A DNA stretch of 64,000 bases from Escherichia phage F2 (NC_054913.1); one strand, 5' to 3'. Positions 10,973 to 18,505 are shown, counted from the first letter of the stretch. Notes: generated by a model from the sequence alone, not told the origin. Translations and numbers: made by a program.

Positions 10973-11228
10973 AGTGTACGGGTATGACTCTACTATTCAT
11001 AAATGCATTTATTGTGATAATGCGAAACGATTGCTGACTGTTAAGAAACAGCCATTCGAATTCATTAATGTTATGCCAGAAAAAGGTGTGTTCGATGATG
11101 AGAAAATTGCTGAGCTTCTGGTTAAGCTTGGACGTGAATCACAAGTCGGATTGACTATGCCTCAAGTGTTTGCTCCTGATGGAACTTCGATCGGTGGCTT
11201 TGACCAACTACGAGAATATTTTAAATGA
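10965..11228 (+). CDS. nrdC: thioredoxin/glutaredoxin NrdC
   Basis: MFKVYGYDSTIHKCIYCDNAK closely matches T4 NrdC; CxxC active site. Confidence 0.9.
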   Translation: MFKVYGYDSTIHKCIYCDNAKRLLTVKKQPFEFINVMPEKGVFDDEKIAELLVKLGRESQVGLTMPQVFAPDGTSIGGFDQLREYFK

Positions 11229-11581
11229 CATATTCATTAAATCTTAAAGATTTCCAAGATGTATACGAAGTTTGTGCCAATGAACTTGGTCCTGATGCTC
11301 CAACTATTATTGAAGTTTTAAATGTGCTCCCTTCATCATTAACTTACGAAGCCAAATCATGGGGTTGGAACGACACTGTCGTTCGTGATGACCTTTACGT
11401 CCTGATGAATGACATGATGATTAAAAAGGCAGAACCGGTTGCACCAATGGTTACCATTACCGTTGAAGAATATAATCGCCTGCAAGCCATTGAAGAGCTT
11501 CTGTGGAACATTGAATGTGACCTGCCGTCAGGGCTAGAATCCTGGATTGATTATGAAGAGCTCAATAAACTCCGGGGTTAA
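11225..11581 (+). CDS. hypothetical protein
   Basis: ORF overlapping nrdC stop. Confidence 0.5.
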   Translation: MTYSLNLKDFQDVYEVCANELGPDAPTIIEVLNVLPSSLTYEAKSWGWNDTVVRDDLYVLMNDMMIKKAEPVAPMVTITVEEYNRLQAIEELLWNIECDLPSGLESWIDYEELNKLRG

Positions 11582-11709
11582 GCCATGGTATTCTGCTCGT
11601 TGGGAGACTGTCGAGCCAGACGTTGAAACAGTTTATAACGACGAAGAAACGTGTTATGATGAACCTACAGTAAACGATATGATTGATTTGGAAATGGGAA
11701 GAGATTATT

Positions 11710-11880
11710 ATGCAAGTTAAATTATTGTACCGTTTATTAAAAAATGGCAAGCATGATTGGTATTTGCTTATTAAAACAGATCCGAATTTTTTCTCTGGAC
11801 AACCATTTACAGTTCGTCCTACTAAACGTCAGCTTCGCAAAGCTAAACGTTCTCATCGTAACTTTTATAGAGAATATTGA
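11710..11880 (+). CDS. small basic hypothetical protein
   Basis: ATG 11710 in ORF track 11683..11880; C-terminal VRPTKRQLRK tail shared with 43143..43355. Confidence 0.4.
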   Translation: MQVKLLYRLLKNGKHDWYLLIKTDPNFFSGQPFTVRPTKRQLRKAKRSHRNFYREY

Positions 11881-11881
11881 T

Positions 11882-12307
11882 ATGAATATTTCTGAAACTC
11901 GCGGTAAATGGTTCAAGATTGTTAAAGAAGATGAAGAACTACAAGTCAAGTTTCCTGAATTAAAGAAAGGAACAATCATCAAGGTAATTGGTACTACTAC
12001 CGAAGATGGTTATGGTGCCCATGGCATTATCGAAGTGATGTTGAACACAGGTGAGAAACTTTGCATCTATGACCGTGATACTTCTCTTTGGTGCTTCTGG
12101 GAATCACATTCAATAGATGAACTCGAAGAAATTGATTCGGCTGATATTGCGGATGTGCTAGGTAGTAAACTTGGCGAATTCGAAGGTGAACGAATTTCTT
12201 ATGCATTAGCTAAATTAGCCGGACAAGAAAATAACGACGGCTATGAAGGTAACCTGATGCAAGCAGCCGCAGAATACATTGAATATTTAGAAAGACGTTT
12301 AAGTTAA
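11882..12307 (+). CDS. hypothetical protein
   Basis: ATG 11882 right after upstream stop; ORF track 11744..12307. Confidence 0.5.
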   Translation: MNISETRGKWFKIVKEDEELQVKFPELKKGTIIKVIGTTTEDGYGAHGIIEVMLNTGEKLCIYDRDTSLWCFWESHSIDELEEIDSADIADVLGSKLGEFEGERISYALAKLAGQENNDGYEGNLMQAAAEYIEYLERRLS

Positions 12308-12342
12308 TAAATACCCTTATCTATTTAAGGTAAGGGTTTATC

Positions 12343-12816
12343 ATGTTATTATCAGGCGCAAAATATAAAGAAGAAAAACAAAAATTTTATGATGCACAGA
12401 ACGGTAAGTGTCCTATTTGCCACCGTGAATTAGACCCTGATGTTCAAGGTAACCATCTTGACCACGACCACGAATTAAACGGGCCAAAAGCAGGTAGAGT
12501 TCGTGGGTTACTCTGTAATCTGTGCAACGCAGCAGAAGGCCAAATGAAGCATAAGTTCAACCGTTCTGGTCTTAAAGGCCGTGATGTCGACTACCTAGAA
12601 TGGCTTGAAGCTCTTCTCGCTTATTTGAAACAAGATTATTCTGATAATAATATCCATCCTAATTTTGTTCCAGACAAAACTAAAGAGTTCTCAAGACTAG
12701 GTAAAGAGGAAATGATGACCGAGATGCTTCAAAGAGGATTTGAATATAATGAATCAGATACTAAAACACAATTAATAGCTTCATTCAAAAAGCAGCTTAG
12801 AAAGAGTTTAAAATGA
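12343..12816 (+). CDS. 49: recombination endonuclease VII (Holliday junction resolvase)
   Basis: 157 aa, near-identical to remembered T4 gp49 (CPICHRELD...HLDHDHELNGPKAG). Confidence 0.95.
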   Translation: MLLSGAKYKEEKQKFYDAQNGKCPICHRELDPDVQGNHLDHDHELNGPKAGRVRGLLCNLCNAAEGQMKHKFNRSGLKGRDVDYLEWLEALLAYLKQDYSDNNIHPNFVPDKTKEFSRLGKEEMMTEMLQRGFEYNESDTKTQLIASFKKQLRKSLK

Positions 12817-13350
12817 AAATTGAAAAAGAAATTGAAGGATTAATTCATAAAACTAATAAAGATCTTTTGAACGAGAATGCTAATAAAGATTCTCGTGTTT
12901 TTCCAACTCAACGGGACCTTATGGCTGGTATTGTGTCTAAGCACATTGCCAAAAATATGGTCCCGTCTTTTATTATGAAAGCACACGAAAGTGGAATTAT
13001 CCACATGCATGATATTGATTATTCTCCTGCTCTTCCATTTACTAATTGCTGTTTAGTCGATTTAAAGGGGATGCTTGAGAATGGATTTAAATTAGGCAAT
13101 GCTCAAATTGAAACGCCTAAATCGATTGGTGTTGCTACTGCAATTATGGCACAAATTACTGCGCAGGTTGCTTCCCATCAATACGGTGGAACTACATTTG
13201 CGAATGTAGATAAAGTCCTTTCTCCTTATGTTAAACGCACCTACGCAAAACATATTGAAGATGCAGAAAAATGGCAAATCGCTGATGCGCTGAATTATGC
13301 CCAATCTAAAACAGAAAAAGACGTATATGATGCATTCCAGGCGTATGAGT
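12813..13350 (+). CDS. nrdD: anaerobic ribonucleoside-triphosphate reductase NrdD, exon 1
   Basis: Matches T4 NrdD N-terminal part; frame enters intron and terminates at 13358. Confidence 0.85.
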
Positions 13351-13561
13351 TAATTTAATTCAGGCTCATGTAAAACCGGTCTAAACGGGGAACCTCTCTA
13401 GTAGACAATCCCGTGCTAAATGTTCTTTTGAACTAAATGCCTAACGACTAACCGTGATGAATGTAGCGGTGTAGAATAGAAGCTAATGCTATTCGAAACG
13501 GCCGGCATCGAAAGATGAAGATATAGTCTAATCTGCATGGCGACATGCAGCAGTCATCTTG

Positions 13562-13569
13562 TATAAATA
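13562..13569 (+). promoter_or_regulatory. T4-type late promoter TATAAATA inside intron
   Basis: Exact TATAAATA about 30 nt upstream of intron ORF. Confidence 0.45.
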
Positions 13570-13598
13570 AGATTATCTTATGAATACGAGGTGAAACA

Positions 13599-14369
13599 AT
13601 GAAATGGATAAAAAGACGTTGTACTAAAATAAAAGATAAAGACGCATTTACATACTTAGTTAAGTTTTCTAATGGTGACATTTATATCGGTTATAAAAAA
13701 TTTAGAACAATTAAAAACAAGCCCACAAACTGGAAAACTTACACAACGTCATCTAAGTATATAAATGAACGCTTAAAAACTGATACACCTACTAAATGGA
13801 TAATTTTAAAAACATTTGATAGTTATAAAGATGCATTAAAACACGAAGAAGAGGTCATACGTAAATATTTTTATAGCAAAAAATGTTTAAATAAATCCAT
13901 AGGCGGTAAAAAGTTTTATAAGCATCCGGATACTGAAGAACATATTCAAAAATTAAGAGATGCTCATAAGGGTAAAGTGTTATCCGAATCTCATAAAAAC
14001 AATATAAAATCTTCTGTAGCTGAATATTATGCTAAAAACGGAAGATCTAAGGAACATGTGCAAAATAATATCAATAGTCGAAAAAGTAAAAAACAAGTAT
14101 CGATAAAGCTTAAAAATAAAACTTTTAGAAGTTTTAAAAAAGCAGCGGAATATTTAAATTGCACTGAAAGTGAAGTCGAAACTCATCCTCTTGTTTTGAG
14201 TATTAAGACTACTATTCATAAAGTTCCTGAATATGTGGTTGTTGACGGTATTAAGTATACGTCTTATATAGAAGCAGCTAAAGCGCTAAATTTTCATCCT
14301 AGCACTATAAAAGAACGTTGCATATCTATGGACTATCCAAATTTTGTTGTTTCATATAAACGGGCATGA
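13599..14369 (+). CDS. GIY-YIG homing endonuclease (I-TevII-like, intron-encoded)
   Basis: GIY-YIG-like motif DIYIGY near N-terminus; Lys-rich DNA-binding C-terminal half; located within nrdD intron as I-TevII is in T4. Confidence 0.75.
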   Translation: MKWIKRRCTKIKDKDAFTYLVKFSNGDIYIGYKKFRTIKNKPTNWKTYTTSSKYINERLKTDTPTKWIILKTFDSYKDALKHEEEVIRKYFYSKKCLNKSIGGKKFYKHPDTEEHIQKLRDAHKGKVLSESHKNNIKSSVAEYYAKNGRSKEHVQNNINSRKSKKQVSIKLKNKTFRSFKKAAEYLNCTESEVETHPLVLSIKTTIHKVPEYVVVDGIKYTSYIEAAKALNFHPSTIKERCISMDYPNFVVSYKRA

Positions 14370-14383
14370 ATTTGCGACTCATG

Positions 14384-15675
14384 CTGAATATAATGATGAA
14401 GTAAATACACTTTTCAGCTCTAATGGACAGACGCCTTTTGTAACAATTACATTTGGTACTGGAACTGACTGGACTGAACGAATGATTCAGAAGGCAATTC
14501 TTAAAAACCGCATTAAAGGTCTTGGTCGCGACGGAATAACTCCTATTTTCCCTAAACTTGTTATGTTCGTTGAAGAAGGTGTTAATCTTTATAAAGACGA
14601 TCCGAATTATGATATTAAGCAGCTTGCTCTAGAGTGTGCAAGCAAAAGAATGTATCCTGATATTATTTCAGTTAAGAATAATAAAGCTATCACTGGTTCA
14701 TCTGTTCCTGTTTCTCCAATGGGCTGTCGTAGTTTCTTGAGCGTATGGAAAGATTCGACTGGTAATGAAATTCTTGATGGACGTAATAATCTTGGTGTTG
14801 TAACACTGAATCTTCCTCGTATTGCGTTAGATTCTTATATTGGAACACAGTTCAATGAACAGAAATTTGTTGAATTATTCAATGAACGAATGGATTTATG
14901 TTTTGAAGCATTGATGTGCAGAATTAGTTCCTTAAAAGGAGTTAAAGCTACTGTTGCTCCTATTCTTTACCAAGAAGGTGCATTCGGGGTTCGTCTTAAA
15001 CCTGATGACGATATAATTGAGTTATTTAAAAACGGCAGAAGTTCAGTGTCCCTAGGATACATTGGTATTCACGAATTGAATATTCTTGTCGGACGTGATA
15101 TTGGACAGGAAATTTTAACTAAAATGAATGCTCGTCTTAAGCAGTGGACTGAAAGAACCGGTTTTGCTTTTAGCCTGTATTCTACTCCTGCTGAAAACCT
15201 GTGCTATCGCTTCTGTAAACTTGATACTGAGAAATATGGAAGTGTAAAAGATGTTACTGATAAAGGCTGGTACACTAATAGTTTCCATGTTTCAGTAGAA
15301 GAAAATATCACTCCGTTTGAAAAGATTTCTCGCGAAGCCACATATCATTTCATTGCGACTGGCGGACATATTTCTTATGTTGAACTTCCTGATATGAAAA
15401 ATAACCTAAAAGGTCTTGAGGCTGTATGGGATTATGCTGCACAACATTTAGATTATTTTGGTGTTAATATGCCAGTAGATAAATGTTTTACATGCGGAAG
15501 TACTCATGAAATGACTCCTACTGAAAACGGATTTGTTTGTTCTATTTGTGGAGAAACTGATCCTAAAAAGATGAACACAATAAGAAGAACATGCGGATAT
15601 CTTGGAACTCCTAGCGTTGTTCCATGGAATTTAGGTAAAATGAAAGAAATGGTAAAACGAGTAAAACATGCATAG
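14384..15675 (+). CDS. nrdD: anaerobic ribonucleoside-triphosphate reductase NrdD, exon 2
   Basis: Glycyl-radical C-terminal region with C-terminal Zn ribbon CFTCG...CSICG. Confidence 0.85.
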
Positions 15676-16498
15676 GTATTATATAATTTATAAAATAACA
15701 AATATAATTAATTCAAAGGAATATATCGGTGCGCATAGCACCGATAACATAAATGACGGTTATATGGGGTCAGGAACATTGATTCGTGCCGCTTTATTAA
15801 AATATGGTAGAAAAAATTTTAATAAAGAAATTTTACATGTTTTTGATAATGAAAAACAAATGTATGATAAAGAAGCTGAACTTGTAACCGAAGAGTATTG
15901 TCTAAAAGAAAATACATATAATATTAAACCTGGTGGAAAAGGTGGAACTGCCTATGAACAGACACTTGAACATCGCCGCAAAAATAGTTTAGCAAATAAA
16001 GGTAAAAAGAGAACAGAAGAAACTAAAATAGCTATTTCACGTGCTTTAAAGAAATATAAACGTACGCCAGAGCATCAAGCAAATTTAAATAAAGCCGTAA
16101 GCATAGCTATGAAGCGAAAAGATGTTAGAAGTAAATTAGCTGGAGAGCGGTCTGAGAAAGATAAATTATCTATATCAAACGGTGTTAAAAAATATTACAA
16201 TTCTTTGAGTGAAGAAGAACGCGAACTTCATCGCAAGCGAATTATTGAAGGTAAAAAGAATTCTCCCATGTCATTGGAATCTAGACAAAAGCTTTCAAAA
16301 GCTTTAAAAGGACTTCAAGTTGGTTCAAAAAATCCAATGTATGGAAAAATTTCTCCAACTAGCAAAACCGTTTCAGTTGACGGTATTAAATATGATTCAA
16401 TTAAAAAGTGCTCAAATGCCATAAAAGTTTCTAGACATCTTATACTAAAACGCTGTAATTCTACTGATGAAGCTTGGAAAAATTGGATATTATTATGA
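15668..16498 (+). CDS. free-standing GIY-YIG homing endonuclease (Seg-like)
   Basis: N-terminal GIY-YIG motif (YYIIYKITN...EYIGAH); basic C-terminal repeats; inserted between nrdD and nrdG. Confidence 0.75.
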   Translation: MHRYYIIYKITNIINSKEYIGAHSTDNINDGYMGSGTLIRAALLKYGRKNFNKEILHVFDNEKQMYDKEAELVTEEYCLKENTYNIKPGGKGGTAYEQTLEHRRKNSLANKGKKRTEETKIAISRALKKYKRTPEHQANLNKAVSIAMKRKDVRSKLAGERSEKDKLSISNGVKKYYNSLSEEERELHRKRIIEGKKNSPMSLESRQKLSKALKGLQVGSKNPMYGKISPTSKTVSVDGIKYDSIKKCSNAIKVSRHLILKRCNSTDEAWKNWILL

Positions 16499-16965
16499 AT
16501 TATGACAGAATATACCCGTGCTGCTTTGTTAATGGCCCTGGTTGCAGGGTCGTTCTTTTCGTTACGGGTTGTTTGCATAAATGCGAAGGGTGTTATAATA
16601 AATCAACATGGAATGCTAGAAATGGTATTCCATTCACTGGTGAAACACTAGAACAATTGATTGAATGTTTGAATAATGATTATATAGAAGGATTAACTAT
16701 AACCGGAGGAGACCCTCTCTATCCTGATAACCGAGATGTTATTCATCGCATTGCTCAAACAGTAAAAAATCTTTATCCCAATAAAAGCATTTGGTTGTGG
16801 ACAGGATATAAGTTTGAAGATATTAAACAACTAGAAATGCTTAAATATGTTGATGTTATTATTGATGGTAAGTATGAGAAAAATCTTCCGACCAAAAAGT
16901 TGTGGCGAGGATCAGATAATCAGCGACTTTGGTCAAATACCAATGGGGTGTGGAAACATGATTAA
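16495..16965 (+). CDS. nrdG: anaerobic ribonucleotide reductase activating protein (radical SAM)
   Basis: Cys cluster CLHKCEGC, TITGGDPL; position after nrdD. Confidence 0.9.
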   Translation: MNYDRIYPCCFVNGPGCRVVLFVTGCLHKCEGCYNKSTWNARNGIPFTGETLEQLIECLNNDYIEGLTITGGDPLYPDNRDVIHRIAQTVKNLYPNKSIWLWTGYKFEDIKQLEMLKYVDVIIDGKYEKNLPTKKLWRGSDNQRLWSNTNGVWKHD

Positions 16966-17079
16966 ATTGAATTATATTATGGATACTATAAATGATATGA
17001 TTTTTCATTTTGGTCCAGAATTTTATTCACAGTGTAGTTTAGTGCTTATCAATGCTTGGTTAACCAATTAAGGGTAAAT

Positions 17080-17295
17080 ATGTATAAATTTCGTAAAGGT
17101 TTAGCTGATTTTCTTACAACTGTAACGTTCTTTTTGTTTATGGCAGTTGGAGCTATTTTTCTTATTCCTTTTACTGGTGTATTTTTCGTGATTGGTTTAA
17201 TTTCTCCAGAAAAGGGTTTATCCTCCAGCGAATTCAATGAACGTTTGGACAAAATTACTAATAAACTGAATTCTGTTCTTGATAAAAAGGCTTAA
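17080..17295 (+). CDS. small hypothetical membrane protein
   Basis: ATG 17080 within track ORF 17056..17295; hydrophobic core. Confidence 0.45.
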   Translation: MYKFRKGLADFLTTVTFFLFMAVGAIFLIPFTGVFFVIGLISPEKGLSSSEFNERLDKITNKLNSVLDKKA

Positions 17296-17297
17296 TT

Positions 17298-17615
17298 ATG
17301 ATTAGTTTTGAGCGGTATGTAGTAGAGAGTTGGAATGGTTTTGATATGTTCGGTAATGACTATTATTTCTATGAATGTAGTCTGAACCCAAGCTTCTGGG
17401 CTGGACGTGAACAAGACCTCGAAGAAATCAACGCTCGTGCCGATTTGTTAGGTGAACTGCCTACGGTTTATTTTACCTTTGATGAATCCGGCTTCGTTAT
17501 CCAGGTTTATTTTCCTGAAGAAAACTCTGGTGAGGATCCTGTTAATCCTCCTTATTGGGCTTACCAAGGAATTATTTCTCGTGGAACAAAACTCGAACTT
17601 AAAGAACAAGATTGA
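17298..17615 (+). CDS. hypothetical protein
   Basis: 105-aa ORF. Confidence 0.5.
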   Translation: MISFERYVVESWNGFDMFGNDYYFYECSLNPSFWAGREQDLEEINARADLLGELPTVYFTFDESGFVIQVYFPEENSGEDPVNPPYWAYQGIISRGTKLELKEQD

Positions 17616-17904
17616 AATCTATGGCATCCCTGAAGAAGTAGGACGTTGTCCAGGATGTTATACTGTTACAAAACTTTTAAAGGAGCTCAATGCTCCTTAT
17701 ACATTTTATAAAGTCCTCACTAATAATGGTAAGATTGAATACGACCGTCCTTTAATCGTATCTCTTGCTAAACGTGCAGGATTCACTTCACTTAATATTC
17801 GTTATCCTGTCATATTTTTAAATGATAAGAAACAAAAGAATATTGCAGAGTTTAAAAAGTCCTTGATTTCATTAGGATACGACTCTGATATCATAGAAGA
17901 TTGA
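17581..17904 (+). CDS. NrdH-like glutaredoxin/thioredoxin-fold protein (start codon uncertain)
   Basis: IEIYGIPEEVGRCPGC redox motif; no in-frame ATG, candidate starts GTG 17581 or ATT 17611. Confidence 0.55.
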   Translation: MEQNSNLKNKIEIYGIPEEVGRCPGCYTVTKLLKELNAPYTFYKVLTNNGKIEYDRPLIVSLAKRAGFTSLNIRYPVIFLNDKKQKNIAEFKKSLISLGYDSDIIED

Positions 17905-17921
17905 CCAGGTGCCGCCTGGTC
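17903..17921 (+). terminator. terminator-like hairpin
   Basis: gaccaggtgccgcctggtc followed by T-rich tract. Confidence 0.45.
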
Positions 17922-18070
17922 TTCTTTATCTCATTTCTAATATAATCCATTGGAATCTTCACTTCACTATCTCCTTGTGCCCCTCTCAAATCAAAAATAT
18001 TTTTCATAAAACAGTTTACATCCTCGATAGATATGTTAAGATTAAACCATCTGCTATAGAGGAAAACAAA

Positions 18071-18253
18071 ATGACAATTGAAGATAAAGAAATTAAGGTT
18101 GACCAGTATTATTCTGTCAATGGTAATGCAGTACGGATAACCAGAATTTCAAGCCTGGATGTTTGGTACCGTTCAATCAAATATCCAGAAATTGGTGAAA
18201 TGCTTTGTGACCGTAGTATCTTCTGTTCAATTGCGAAGGAAATTAAGCCATGA
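18071..18253 (+). CDS. small hypothetical protein
   Basis: ATG 18071 with GAGGAAAA RBS; track ORF 17909..18253. Confidence 0.4.
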   Translation: MTIEDKEIKVDQYYSVNGNAVRITRISSLDVWYRSIKYPEIGEMLCDRSIFCSIAKEIKP

Positions 18254-18498
18254 TTAGTTTAGATTCAAAGAAGGTTGTTCTAACCCTTAAAGTTAATGAC
18301 GAGCATCCGGTATTCATTACCATTTCCGATTTGCATGTTGAAATTGCTAATGGCGTTCGTACTTATCAAGCAAATAAAACTCAATGGGATTATATCCCGA
18401 TGTTGACGCTTACTCAGCGTTTAGAATCAATCGGTCTTAAAGACCTTTCAGTAAGTGAAGTGAATTTTATCAAACGCGTTGTATCGATCAACCTCTGA
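18250..18498 (+). CDS. hypothetical protein
   Basis: ORF overlapping upstream stop. Confidence 0.5.
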   Translation: MISLDSKKVVLTLKVNDEHPVFITISDLHVEIANGVRTYQANKTQWDYIPMLTLTQRLESIGLKDLSVSEVNFIKRVVSINL

Positions 18499-18505
18499 GG
18501 TACTT

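What the first reader, a model, noticed from the sequence alone, without database searches (positions are those of the whole stretch)
12813..15675. nrdD interrupted by a 1033-nt group I intron encoding a GIY-YIG endonuclease under a late promoter
The NrdD reading frame stops at 13358 and resumes in another frame at 14384. The intervening sequence contains the conserved group I core also seen in the T4 nrdD intron and an ORF with a GIY-YIG-like motif preceded by TATAAATA. Splice sites at T13350 and G14383 give an intron with length 1 mod 3 that restores the frame.
Basis: partly seen in the sequence, partly recalled or inferred. Interest (0 to 1): 0.5.

Follow-up and report, generated by a model that had tools for sequence, protein, structure and literature searches.

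The report
Second-lineage nrdD group I intron

Summary
The core of the finding holds. nrdD (12813-15675) in this T4-like phage is split by a group I intron at exactly the T4 nrdD/sunY insertion site. The intron carries an I-TevII-like GIY-YIG endonuclease gene (13599-14369) behind a TATAAATA box and an RBS-sequestering hairpin.

Two corrections:
- The 3' splice site is G14395|A14396, not G14383|C14384, so the intron is 1045 nt, not 1033 (T4's figure). Intronless alleles read TATGAAT|ATGAAGT. It also lies inside a conserved, covarying P9.2 hairpin.
- This is not the T4 intron. It is about 65% identical in DNA and 56% in endonuclease protein. The fold is kept: 67 pairs compared, 18 changed on both sides, none broken.

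The window's lineage occurs in 42 phage records, all at least 99.2% identical, although their flanking exons are only 91-96% identical. That is a homing signature. The T4 type occurs in 25 records. A 42-nt P4-P6 segment is identical to the T4 td intron, which suggests exchange between introns.

Verdict: a real but ordinary feature, a new member of a well-known kind.

The parts
12813..13350 (+). nrdD exon 1 (538 nt, ending in the first base of a Tyr codon)
   Evidence: ORF list. Pfam NRDD 2e-40 covering profile positions 1-141. The same 538-nt exon 1 as T4.
13351..14395 (+). Group I intron (subgroup IA2 architecture), 1045 nt. U13350 pairs with G13364 as the U.G wobble at the 5' splice site. 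The terminal G is G14395.
   Evidence: Exactly this stretch is absent from intronless alleles. RF00028 scores 71.8 bits. It is 99.2-99.9% identical in 42 phage records.
13345..13369 (+). P1: exon AUGAGU (13345-13350) pairs with the internal guide GCUCAU (13364-13369). The loop L1 holds the in-frame stop TAA at 13356-13358 and UUCA at 13359-13362, which can form P10 with exon-2 UGAA at 14397-14400.
   Evidence: Direct reading. Identical pairing in T4. All intron-bearing alleles have G at -2, whereas intronless HY01 and APCEc01 have A.
13376..13550 (+). Ribozyme core, listed as helix and its two strands:
- P3: 13376-81 / 13500-05
- P4: 13385-90 / 13409-14
- P5: 13395-97 / 13403-05
- P6: 13415-16 / 13439-40
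- P6a: 13422-25 / 13430-33
- P7: 13446-50 / 13524-28
- P7.1: 13451-55 / 13466-70
- P7.2: 13474-78 / 13490-94
- P8: 13506-09 / 13514-17
- P9: 13533-39 / 13544-50
   Evidence: Helix-by-helix comparison with the T4 nrdD intron. Thermodynamic folding of the natural 345-nt ORF-less derivative recovers every helix except P1 and the pseudoknotted P7, with z = -3.6. CM alignment.
13380..13421 (+). P3'-P4-P5-P6 segment (intron positions 30-71) that is 42/42 identical to the T4 td intron. The T4 nrdD intron matches it at only 33/42.
   Evidence: Megablast hits to td introns at 100% identity. Three-way alignment.
13554..13594 (+). P9.1, the RBS-sequestering hairpin. An 11-bp outer stem (13554-64 / 13584-94) pairs the Shine-Dalgarno GAGG (13588-13591). 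An inner 6-bp stem (13567-72 / 13576-81) is created by an 11-nt insertion relative to T4.
   Evidence: MFE -17.3 kcal/mol for 13550-13610, against -17.4 for the T4 equivalent. [quoted passage not shown]
13562..13569 (+). T4-late-promoter-type box TATAAATA, lying inside the 5' strand and loop of P9.1. The inferred late start is near 13575.
   Evidence: Exact match. It is homologous in position to T4's box. The motif count alone is not significant.
13599..14369 (+). Homing endonuclease gene, 256 aa, an I-TevII homologue. It has an N-terminal GIY-YIG domain and a NUMOD1-type DNA-binding module. Its stop codon UGA (14367-14369) lies in the 5' strand of P9.2.
   Evidence: 56% identity to T4 I-TevII, E=1e-101. 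Pfam hits. PHROG 314 homing endonuclease, 3.6e-29. hhalign against I-TevI gives 94.8% probability. The ORF is intact in 7 of 7 carriers checked.
14363..14385 (+). P9.2 hairpin: GGCAUGA (14363-69) pairs with UCAUGCU (14379-85), with loop AUUUGCGAC.
   Evidence: Fold. Four of seven pairs are changed on both sides relative to T4's GGUAGAG/CUCUACU. The T4 td and nrdB introns have the same hairpin-plus-tail design.
14386..14395 (+). Single-stranded 3' tail GAAUAUAAUG ending in the terminal G (G14395).
   Evidence: It aligns with the T4 nrdD, td and nrdB tails GAACACAUUG, GAACAUAAUG and GAACAUACG. The boundary is fixed by intronless alleles.
14396..15675 (+). nrdD exon 2 (1280 nt including the stop). 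The spliced gene encodes a 605-aa NrdD with the glycyl-radical motif RRTCGYLG.
   Evidence: Pfam NRDD 9.5e-123 and Gly_radical. The spliced translation has a single terminal stop. Match to 1h78.

Best explanation
This is a mobile, self-splicing group I intron of IA2 architecture, with P7.1 and P7.2 and no P2. It is inserted in nrdD at the same nucleotide as the T4 nrdD (sunY) intron, and it is a sister lineage of that intron.

Splicing (inferred from structure):
- The pre-mRNA folds so that exon AUGAGU pairs with the guide GCUCAU (P1), with U13350.G13364 at the cleavage site.
- Exogenous guanosine attacks after U13350.
- The P9.2 hairpin and its 10-nt tail deliver G14395 to the G-binding site in P7.
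- The exons are ligated as ...GAGU|AUGAAG..., giving a 605-aa NrdD co-linear with T4 NrdD.
- Ribosomes translating exon 1 stop at the TAA 6-8 nt inside the intron, before they reach the guide sequence.

Endonuclease expression (inferred by homology with T4):
- The intron carries an I-TevII-like GIY-YIG endonuclease gene downstream of the ribozyme core.
- In early or middle read-through transcripts its Shine-Dalgarno sequence is locked in the P9.1 hairpin.
- Transcripts from the TATAAATA box inside that hairpin lack the 5' strand, so the enzyme is made only late.

Homing (inferred):
- The enzyme cuts intronless nrdD alleles in co-infecting phages.
- Repair copies the intron in, together with a few tens of nucleotides of flanking exon.

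What is shown here: the boundaries, the fold conservation, the homology and the population signature.
What is inferred: splicing chemistry, late transcription, cleavage and homing.
For: Boundaries:
- The top-listed intronless records match the T13350|A14396 junction as single pieces spanning exactly 400 nt; 622 records in all cover at least 80% of that query.
- HY01 and APCEc01 read TATGAAT|ATGAAGT.
- T4's annotated intron aligns to the same two sites.
- With these junctions the product is co-linear with 1h78 and 9d3x.

Ribozyme:
- RF00028 scores 71.8 bits locally.
- Across 13 helices and 67 pairs compared with T4, 46 are unchanged, 3 changed on one side, 18 changed on both sides and none is broken.
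- Folding the natural 345-nt derivative recovers P3, P4, P5, P6, P6a, P7.1, P7.2, P8, P9, P9.1 and P9.2, with z = -3.6 and 0 of 100 shuffles as stable.

Endonuclease:
- 56% identity to I-TevII.
- Pfam and PHROG hits.
- Profile match to I-TevI with the GIY, YIG, Glu and Asn positions aligned.

Regulation:
- The hairpin (-17.3 kcal/mol) sequesters GAGG, with TATAAATA inside it.
- This matches the scheme reviewed in PMC2988022.

Mobility:
- The intron is 99.2-99.9% identical among phages whose adjacent exons are 91-96% identical and whose gp49 is about 80% identical.
- Carriers share only the 16-22 nt upstream and 22-31 nt downstream of the intron.
- It occurs in both Tequatrovirus and Mosigvirus backgrounds.
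- The window's closest backbone relative, APCEc01, lacks it.
Against: - There is no RNA or enzyme data for this lineage, so splicing, late transcription and cleavage rest on homology with T4.
- TATAAATA is not enriched in the window.
- The I-TevI catalytic Arg27 aligns with Asn44. T4 I-TevII has Asn at the same position and is listed as active (PMC2988022).
- The structure model was poor (pLDDT 57) and the fold search was not significant.
- The helix homologies were assigned by me. The P8 register in particular is a judgement.
- An alternative 3' site (G14383) has a longer potential P10 than the true site.
Confidence: 0.9

Rival explanations
1. One reading: 5' after T13350 and 3' after G14383. 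This gives a 1033-nt intron and a 609-aa NrdD with the extra residues SEYN, either as the only product or as a minor alternative product.
For: G14383 is preceded by AU, as the true terminal G is. The following CUGAAU (14384-89) is perfectly complementary over 6 bp to AUUCAG (13358-63), next to the guide sequence, which makes a longer P10 than the true site's 4 bp. The product stays in frame.
Against: - Intronless alleles contain none of the 12 nt CTGAATATAATG.
- The insertion is absent from T4 NrdD (1h78) and bacterial NrdD (9d3x).
- The site lies inside the P9.2 stem, which covaries with T4.
- T4 has A rather than G at the equivalent position.
- Only two of the six P10 pairs go beyond what the true site also forms.
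Confidence: 0.05
2. The intron is a splicing-dead relic, or nrdD is genuinely split into two polypeptides as public records annotate it. On this view NrdD is non-functional, or assembled from two chains as with the mobE-split nrdA of phage Aeh1.
For: All inspected GenBank records annotate two separate nrdD CDSs and no intron. Split but functional phage RNR genes exist (PMC3653736).
Against: - No ribozyme pair is broken among the 67 compared.
- The core scores well above the Rfam gathering score.
- The exons carry no frameshift or stop, and the spliced product is a complete NrdD.
- Exon 2 has no start codon at the homology boundary. The annotated starts are arbitrary, a TTG inside the endonuclease ORF or an internal ATG.
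- T4's homologous intron is an established self-splicing intron.
Confidence: 0.03
3. The element splices, but its endonuclease is no longer an active homing enzyme, so the intron is now inherited only vertically or by general recombination.
For: The I-TevI catalytic Arg aligns with Asn44. ORF-deleted derivatives exist in BYEP01 and 215Ecol030PP. Some carriers have 1-2 nt length differences and ORFs annotated as split.
Against: - The ORF is intact in 7 of 7 carriers checked.
- T4 I-TevII has the same Asn and is active.
- Near-identity of the intron across diverged genomes and two genera, with short shared exon flanks, is what active homing predicts.
Confidence: 0.1

Closest known systems
Phage T4 nrdD (sunY) group I intron with I-TevII
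   Same: - The same host gene and the same insertion nucleotide, with exon 1 of 538 nt in both.
- The same helix set: P1, P3-P9, P7.1, P7.2, P9.1 and P9.2, with no P2.
- An identical P7.1 loop, GAUGAAUGUA.
- The ORF placed after P9.1 rather than in P6a.
- An in-frame TAA at intron positions +6 to +8.
- A TATAAATA box inside an RBS-sequestering hairpin.
- The endonuclease is a full-length homologue.

   Different: - 64-66% DNA identity, with no megablast match outside short core blocks.
- The endonuclease is 56% identical and 256 aa rather than 258 aa.
- The intron is 1045 nt rather than 1033 nt.
- 18 base pairs are changed on both sides.
- P7.2 is longer and P8 is shorter, with a GAAA loop.
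- An 11-nt insertion creates an extra inner hairpin at the promoter.
- The exon-2 haplotype at +8 to +17 differs.
- The two lineages are discrete. Only two 90% clusters were found among 5.8 billion clustered proteins, by a word-seeded search that can miss distant relatives.

Phage T4 td group I intron with I-TevI
   Same: - IA2-type core.
- Intron positions 30-71 (P3'-P4-P5-P6) are 42/42 identical.
- J6/7 and P7 5' (UAAAUGCCUAACGACUA) are also identical.
- A P9.2 hairpin followed by a tail ...CUGAACAUAAUG, which matches the window's tail at 11 of 12 positions.
- A GIY-YIG endonuclease under a late promoter with a sequestered RBS.

   Different: - A different host gene and guide sequence.
- td has P2, and its ORF sits in P6a.
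- P7.1 lacks the 10-nt loop.
- I-TevI is only a remote homologue of the ORF here (hhalign 19% identity).
Free-standing Seg-type GIY-YIG homing endonucleases of T-even phages (Pfam SegE_GIY-YIG)
   Same: The ORF's N-terminal domain passes the SegE_GIY-YIG model, and 20 of 35 of its remote relatives do too. NUMOD-type DNA-binding modules are shared.
   Different: Those genes sit between genes and are not embedded in a ribozyme. One such gene (15668-16498) lies just downstream of nrdD in this window.

Membership tests
Group I intron (Rfam RF00028; IA2 architecture) | Conserved catalytic core (P3-P9, including the P7 G-binding helix) recognised by the covariance model | tested here: met
   71.8 bits against a gathering score of 50, E=5.7e-18, in a local scan. 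The T4 control scores 105.3 bits. Whole-window scans missed it.
Group I intron (Rfam RF00028; IA2 architecture) | P1 with a U.G wobble at the 5' splice site, formed with an internal guide sequence | tested here: met
   AUGAGU (13345-50) pairs with GCUCAU (13364-69), with U13350.G13364. The pairing is identical in T4.
Group I intron (Rfam RF00028; IA2 architecture) | Terminal G at the 3' end of the intron | tested here: met
   G14395 is the last base of the segment missing from intronless alleles.
Group I intron (Rfam RF00028; IA2 architecture) | Helices supported by compensatory change, including the IA2-specific P7.1 and P7.2 | tested here: met
   18 of 67 pairs are changed on both sides and 0 are broken, compared with the T4 nrdD intron. 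P7.1 has 2 and P7.2 has 3 such changes. This is a two-lineage comparison and the helices were assigned by me.
Group I intron (Rfam RF00028; IA2 architecture) | Guanosine-dependent self-splicing | not testable with these tools
   This needs in vitro transcription and splicing, or cDNA.
T4 nrdD/sunY intron (same element as in T4) | Same insertion site in nrdD | tested here: met
   Exon 1 is 538 nt in both, and the junction aligns to T4's annotated join.
T4 nrdD/sunY intron (same element as in T4) | Near-identity to the T4 intron, as all known T4-type copies including U5 show (at least 99.7%) | tested here: not met
   64-66% identity. T4 records match only the 42-nt td block by megablast. The T4-type set of 25 records excludes this lineage.
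GIY-YIG homing endonuclease (I-TevII-like) | N-terminal GIY...YIG motifs | tested here: met
   FTY19...Y29-I-G31 aligns to I-TevI Y6...Y17-V-G19. Pfam SegE_GIY-YIG scores 26.6 bits against a cut-off of 25, which is marginal.
GIY-YIG homing endonuclease (I-TevII-like) | Conserved catalytic Glu and Asn, plus the H/Y position | tested here: met
   E83, N98 and Y48 are invariant in 35 relatives. They align to I-TevI E75, N90 and H31.
GIY-YIG homing endonuclease (I-TevII-like) | Catalytic Arg (I-TevI R27) | tested here: inconclusive
   The aligned residue is N44. T4 I-TevII has the same Asn and is listed as active (PMC2988022). The alignment is remote, at 19% identity.
GIY-YIG homing endonuclease (I-TevII-like) | GIY-YIG alpha/beta fold | tested here: inconclusive
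   The AlphaFold model has mean pLDDT 57. The N-terminal order of strand, strand, helix, strand, helix is compatible. The best Foldseek PDB E-value is 1.2.
GIY-YIG homing endonuclease (I-TevII-like) | Site-specific cleavage of the intronless allele, and homing | not testable with these tools
   The support is indirect: the intron is at least 99.2% identical across diverged genomes, with short shared exon flanks.
T4 late-promoter / sequestered-RBS control of intron endonucleases | TATAAATA upstream of the ORF, positioned so that late transcripts lack the 5' strand of an RBS-pairing hairpin | tested here: met
   The box lies at 13562-69, inside the hairpin 13554-64 / 13584-94 that pairs GAGG. 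The motif frequency alone is not significant.
T4 late-promoter / sequestered-RBS control of intron endonucleases | Late (gp55-dependent) transcription start and late-only translation | not testable with these tools
   This needs primer extension or RNA-seq time courses.

The most novel reading that the evidence does not exclude
The window's intron is a natural inter-intron recombinant. On this reading, an nrdD-type intron (guide sequence, P7.1 loop, ORF position and I-TevII-like gene) had its P4-P6 domain and P7 5' strand replaced by those of the td intron through recombination in a phage carrying both. I recall laboratory domain shuffling between T4 introns being reported by Bryk and Belfort in 1990; this would be its natural counterpart.

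The reading also holds that the two nrdD intron lineages are competing occupants of one site. Their endonucleases, 56% identical, would have diverged in target preference in step with the lineage-specific exon-2 haplotypes at +8 to +17.
Probability: 0.3. Interest if true: 0.45.

Novelty: new member of a known kind. Interest (0 to 1): 0.25.

Why it matters
The practical value lies mainly in annotation:
- The nine distinct carrier records I inspected (of 44 records that carry the intron or an ORF-deleted derivative) list nrdD as two unrelated CDSs.
- A default covariance-model scan of a large window misses the intron.
- Copying T4's 1033-nt figure gives a wrong protein with four extra residues.

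Biologically, two discrete lineages now sit at one insertion site. Each is nearly identical internally, and the window's lineage is found in both Tequatrovirus and Mosigvirus backgrounds. Together with two natural ORF-deleted derivatives, they give a ready-made system for asking:
- how homing-endonuclease specificity diverges;
- whether one intron can displace another;
- how much of a ribozyme can be recoded (18 double compensatory changes) without losing the fold.

None of this overturns current understanding.

Tried and rejected
1. Rfam on the whole 64-kb window, at gathering and at E<=0.001, gave no hit. The intron appears only in a 1.25-kb scan, so this is a filter loss and not evidence of absence.
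2. I considered that this was simply the T4 intron. That is rejected by 64-66% identity and by T4 records matching only a 42-nt td block.
3. I considered that the window was the first Mosigvirus carrier of the intron. That is rejected: PNJ-9 (Mosigvirus), JK45, JM10, TH58, SHSML-52-1 and others have the same gp49 type plus the intron at 96-98% identity.
4. The MAFFT alignment (A1) made for the count of structure pairs put P9.1 and P9.2 out of register. I counted pairs with an explicit script instead.
5. Structure route for the endonuclease:
   - Only two close clusters were available for the alignment.
   - The model had pLDDT 57.
   - Foldseek against the PDB was not significant. Its top hits were GIY-YIG-superfamily proteins and I-TevI/I-HmuI DNA-binding domains, but at E>1.
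   - The PDB sequence search and NCBIfam gave nothing for the ORF.
6. Operator-like similarity between the homing site and the promoter/RBS region is 14 of 20 at 13576-13596. By my rough estimate the best of about 1200 offsets would reach this about a third of the time, so it is only consistent with Loizos et al. (cited in PMC3984707), not independent evidence.
7. The sigma-70 and terminator scans were uninformative.
8. Literature: three searches found no paper describing this second lineage. The library is incomplete, so this does not prove it is unpublished. I could not retrieve Michel et al. 1992 on sunY 3' splice-site selection.
Full report
**What is there**

The window is from a T4-like phage. 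Around the finding the gene order is:
- gp49 endonuclease VII (12343-12816)
- nrdD in two pieces
- a free-standing GIY-YIG gene (15668-16498)
- nrdG (16474-16965)

The first NrdD piece is the ORF 12813-13358. The second lies in another frame and ends at 15675. Between them is a 256-aa ORF at 13599-14369.

**Is it a group I intron?**

A gathering-threshold Rfam scan of the whole window found nothing, and so did an E<=0.001 scan. A scan of 13250-14500 alone gave RF00028 at 13319-13550 with 71.8 bits (gathering 50) and E=5.7e-18. Under identical settings T4's self-splicing nrdD intron scores 105.3 bits. The misses at window scale are therefore losses in the search filters. Only one exact copy of the core motif GATATAGTCT occurs in the window, at 13520-13529.

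**Splice sites**

The 5' site after T13350 is right. Exon 1 is 538 nt, as in T4. AUGAGU (13345-50) pairs with GCUCAU (13364-69), with U13350.G13364.

The 3' site is not G14383.
- T4's annotated intron (NC_000866 44815-45847, 1033 nt) aligns so that its 3' end corresponds to G14395.
- A 400-nt query built by joining T13350 to A14396 is covered at 80% or more in 622 phage records. The top-listed intronless records match as single pieces spanning exactly 400 nt.
- The intronless alleles of HY01 and APCEc01 read TATGAAT|ATGAAGT.
That is a four-residue insertion relative to the T4 NrdD crystal sequence (1h78) and a bacterial NrdD (9d3x), both of which align across AYE(Y)EVN / LEYEIN.
- With G14395 the spliced gene encodes 605 aa with one terminal stop.

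The intron is therefore 13351-14395, or 1045 nt. The 1033 figure is T4's.

G14383 is also preceded by AU. The next six bases, CUGAAU, are complementary to AUUCAG (13358-63) beside the guide sequence. The true exon 2 (AUGAAG) forms only UGAA/UUCA with the same stretch.

Even so, 14383|14384 lies inside the 3' strand of a 7-bp hairpin (14363-69 / 14379-85). That hairpin is conserved with T4 through four double compensatory changes. The T4 td, nrdB and nrdD introns all end with this P9.2 hairpin, a GCGA-type loop, and a tail of about 10 nt ending in G. T4 has A at the position equivalent to G14383.

**It is not the T4 intron**

| Comparison with T4 | Identity |
|---|---|
| Exons | 91-93% near the junctions |
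| Intron | 64-66% |
| Endonuclease protein | 56% |

By megablast, T4 records match the intron only over 42 nt, and that match lies in the td intron.

Record counts in the phage collection (RefSeq/GenBank duplicates included):

| nrdD state | Records |
|---|---|
| T4-type intron (T4 strains, U5, fPS-2 and others; identity at least 99.7%) | 25 |
| Window-type intron (identity at least 99.2%) | 42 |
| ORF-deleted derivatives of the window type (BYEP01 345 nt, 215Ecol030PP 479 nt) | 2 |
| Intronless | about 620 |

In a collection of 5.8 billion clustered proteins, the endonuclease finds only two 90% clusters, one for each lineage. That search is word-seeded and can miss distant relatives. I found no intermediates.

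**Fold conservation**

I compared 13 homologous helices in the two lineages: P1, P3, P4, P5, P6, P6a, P7, P7.1, P7.2, P8, P9, P9.1 and P9.2. They contain 67 pairs. Of these, 46 are unchanged, 3 are changed on one side, 18 are changed on both sides and still pair, and none is broken. I assigned the helix homologies, and the P8 register is the least certain.

As an independent check, thermodynamic folding of the natural 345-nt derivative recovers every helix except P1 and the pseudoknotted P7. The energy is 3.6 sd below shuffled sequences, and 0 of 100 shuffles fold as well. The architecture is IA2-like, with P7.1 and P7.2 present and no P2, and the ORF sits after P9.1.

**Mosaic core**

- Intron positions 30-71 (13380-13421; P3', P4, P5, P6) are 42/42 identical to the td intron, while T4's nrdD intron matches at 33/42.
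- J6/7 and P7 5' (17 nt) are also td-identical.
- The 10-nt P7.1 loop is identical to T4 nrdD and absent from td.
- P7.2 and P8 are unique.

If this segment diverged from td as T4 nrdD's does (79% identity), 42 straight matches would have probability about 5e-5. This is a post hoc estimate. The pattern points to recent exchange between introns, with the direction unknown. It recalls the laboratory domain shuffling between T4 introns reported by Bryk and Belfort in 1990, which I cite from memory and did not retrieve.

**Endonuclease**

- Pfam SegE_GIY-YIG scores 26.6 bits against a cut-off of 25, and NUMOD1 scores 25.3 against 22.8.
- PHROG 314, homing endonuclease, scores 3.6e-29.
- NCBIfam and the PDB sequence search give nothing.
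- An exhaustive profile search finds 944 relatives at E<=1e-3 but only 3 at E<=1e-30.
- Of 35 aligned relatives, 20 hit SegE_GIY-YIG and 20 hit NUMOD3.
- Y29, G31, Y48, S52, E83 and N98 are invariant among those 35.
- hhalign against I-TevI gives 94.8% probability and E=5.5e-8 over nearly the full length. Y19, Y29-I-G31, Y48, E83 and N98 fall on I-TevI Y6, Y17-V-G19, H31, E75 and N90.
- I-TevI R27 aligns with N44. T4 I-TevII has Asn there too and is listed as active (PMC2988022).
- The AlphaFold model was poor (pLDDT 57) and Foldseek was not significant.
- The ORF is intact in 7 of 7 carriers checked.

**Regulation**

- TATAAATA (13562-69) occurs no more often in the window than chance predicts: 5 matches against 7.8 expected.
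- This copy is positionally homologous to T4's box. It sits inside a hairpin whose 11-bp stem (13554-64 / 13584-94) pairs the Shine-Dalgarno GAGG (13588-91). The fold energy is -17.3 kcal/mol, against -17.4 for T4's equivalent.
- RNAs starting at 13576-13578 leave the RBS free.
- An 11-nt insertion relative to T4 adds an inner hairpin.
- The exon-1 frame stops at TAA 13356-58, the same position as in T4, upstream of the guide sequence.
- The ORF's stop codon lies in the P9.2 5' strand, so translating the ORF would compete with 3' splice-site presentation. This last point is my inference.

**Mobility signature and genomic background**

Among carriers the intron is 99.2-99.9% identical. The adjacent 200 nt of exon are 91-96% identical, and gp49 is about 80% identical. 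Carriers share the exon sequence for only 16-22 nt upstream and 22-31 nt downstream of the intron. T4 and the intronless alleles differ at +8 to +20, and all of those changes are synonymous. All intron-bearing alleles have G at exon position -2, which pairs in P1. Both intronless alleles have A there.

The window's flanks are 96-98% identical to the Mosigvirus APCEc01, which has neither the intron nor a gene between nrdD and nrdG. Exon 2 and 15601-16473 are closest to Tequatrovirus carriers, and 15601-16473 is 100% identical to SYGD1. The intron is present in both genera. Its spread is therefore recent and horizontal.

**Comparison with what is known, and verdict**

This works like the T4 nrdD/I-TevII intron and shares its site and architecture. 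It fails the near-identity that defines the T4-type copies, so I file it as a sister lineage: a new member of a known kind.

Database annotators have already labelled its ORF as "I-TevII homing endonuclease" (JK45). Other records use "intron-associated endonuclease 2" or "group I intron endonuclease". In every record I inspected, nrdD is annotated as two CDSs with no intron feature. I found no paper describing this lineage in the available library. Interest is low to moderate.

Noticed in passing
15600-16498: A free-standing GIY-YIG/NUMOD3 endonuclease gene (276 aa; PHROG 314 at 2.4e-60; TIGR01453 at 50 bits, below its cut-off) overlaps the nrdD stop codon and fills the nrdD-nrdG slot. It comes with a recoded NrdD C-terminus: TPSVVPWNLGKMKEMVKRVKHA instead of NPNERGFNLGKNKEIMHRVKHQ, starting just after the glycyl-radical motif RRTCGYLG. 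That tail is seen only in alleles carrying this gene (window, SYGD1, FL23). The slot varies among phages: HNH mobC in T4, a MobC-like gene in SA20RB, 'SegH' in SYGD1 and LH2, and nothing in SP1, PNJ-9, JK45 and APCEc01.
   Followed up: partly
11000-18500: The genome is a mosaic. The backbone is 96-98% identical to the Mosigvirus APCEc01 on both sides. From about 13200 to 16473 (intron, exon 2 and the downstream endonuclease gene) it is closest to Tequatrovirus carriers. This suggests that a patch of about 3 kb, bounded by two homing endonuclease genes, was imported.
   Followed up: partly
13380-13421 and 13434-13450: There is a 42-nt block (P3'-P4-P5-P6) and a 17-nt block (J6/7 and P7 5'), both identical to the td intron. 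T4's nrdD intron has 9 and 1 differences in them. This is a possible natural exchange between introns.
   Followed up: partly
L004:501-845 (BYEP01) and L005:501-979 (215Ecol030PP): Two phages carry natural internal deletions of the endonuclease ORF, leaving introns of 345 and 479 nt. Both keep the whole 5' core, P9.1, P9.2 and the tail. They are useful as minimal ribozymes and as evidence of endonuclease-gene decay.
   Followed up: partly
whole window; 13319-13550: Method point: the Rfam covariance-model scan of the full 64-kb window misses this intron at both gathering and E<=0.001 settings, although it scores 71.8 bits in a 1.25-kb scan.
   Followed up: yes
14384-14389 vs 13358-13363: CUGAAU, immediately after G14383, is perfectly complementary over 6 bp to AUUCAG next to the guide sequence. 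It could act as a cryptic in-frame 3' splice site or as an alternative pairing. It is not conserved in T4 and remains unexplained.
   Followed up: partly
12726-12750: GCTT-N15-TATAAT lies inside the 3' end of gene 49. It is homologous in position to the feature that the SA20RB record annotates as a T4 middle (MotA-type) promoter, and it would drive nrdD.
   Followed up: no
public records L001, L007-L010, L014, L015: Every inspected GenBank or RefSeq record with this intron annotates nrdD as two independent CDSs. The second starts at an arbitrary TTG inside the endonuclease ORF or at an internal ATG. None has an intron or join feature.
   Followed up: yes
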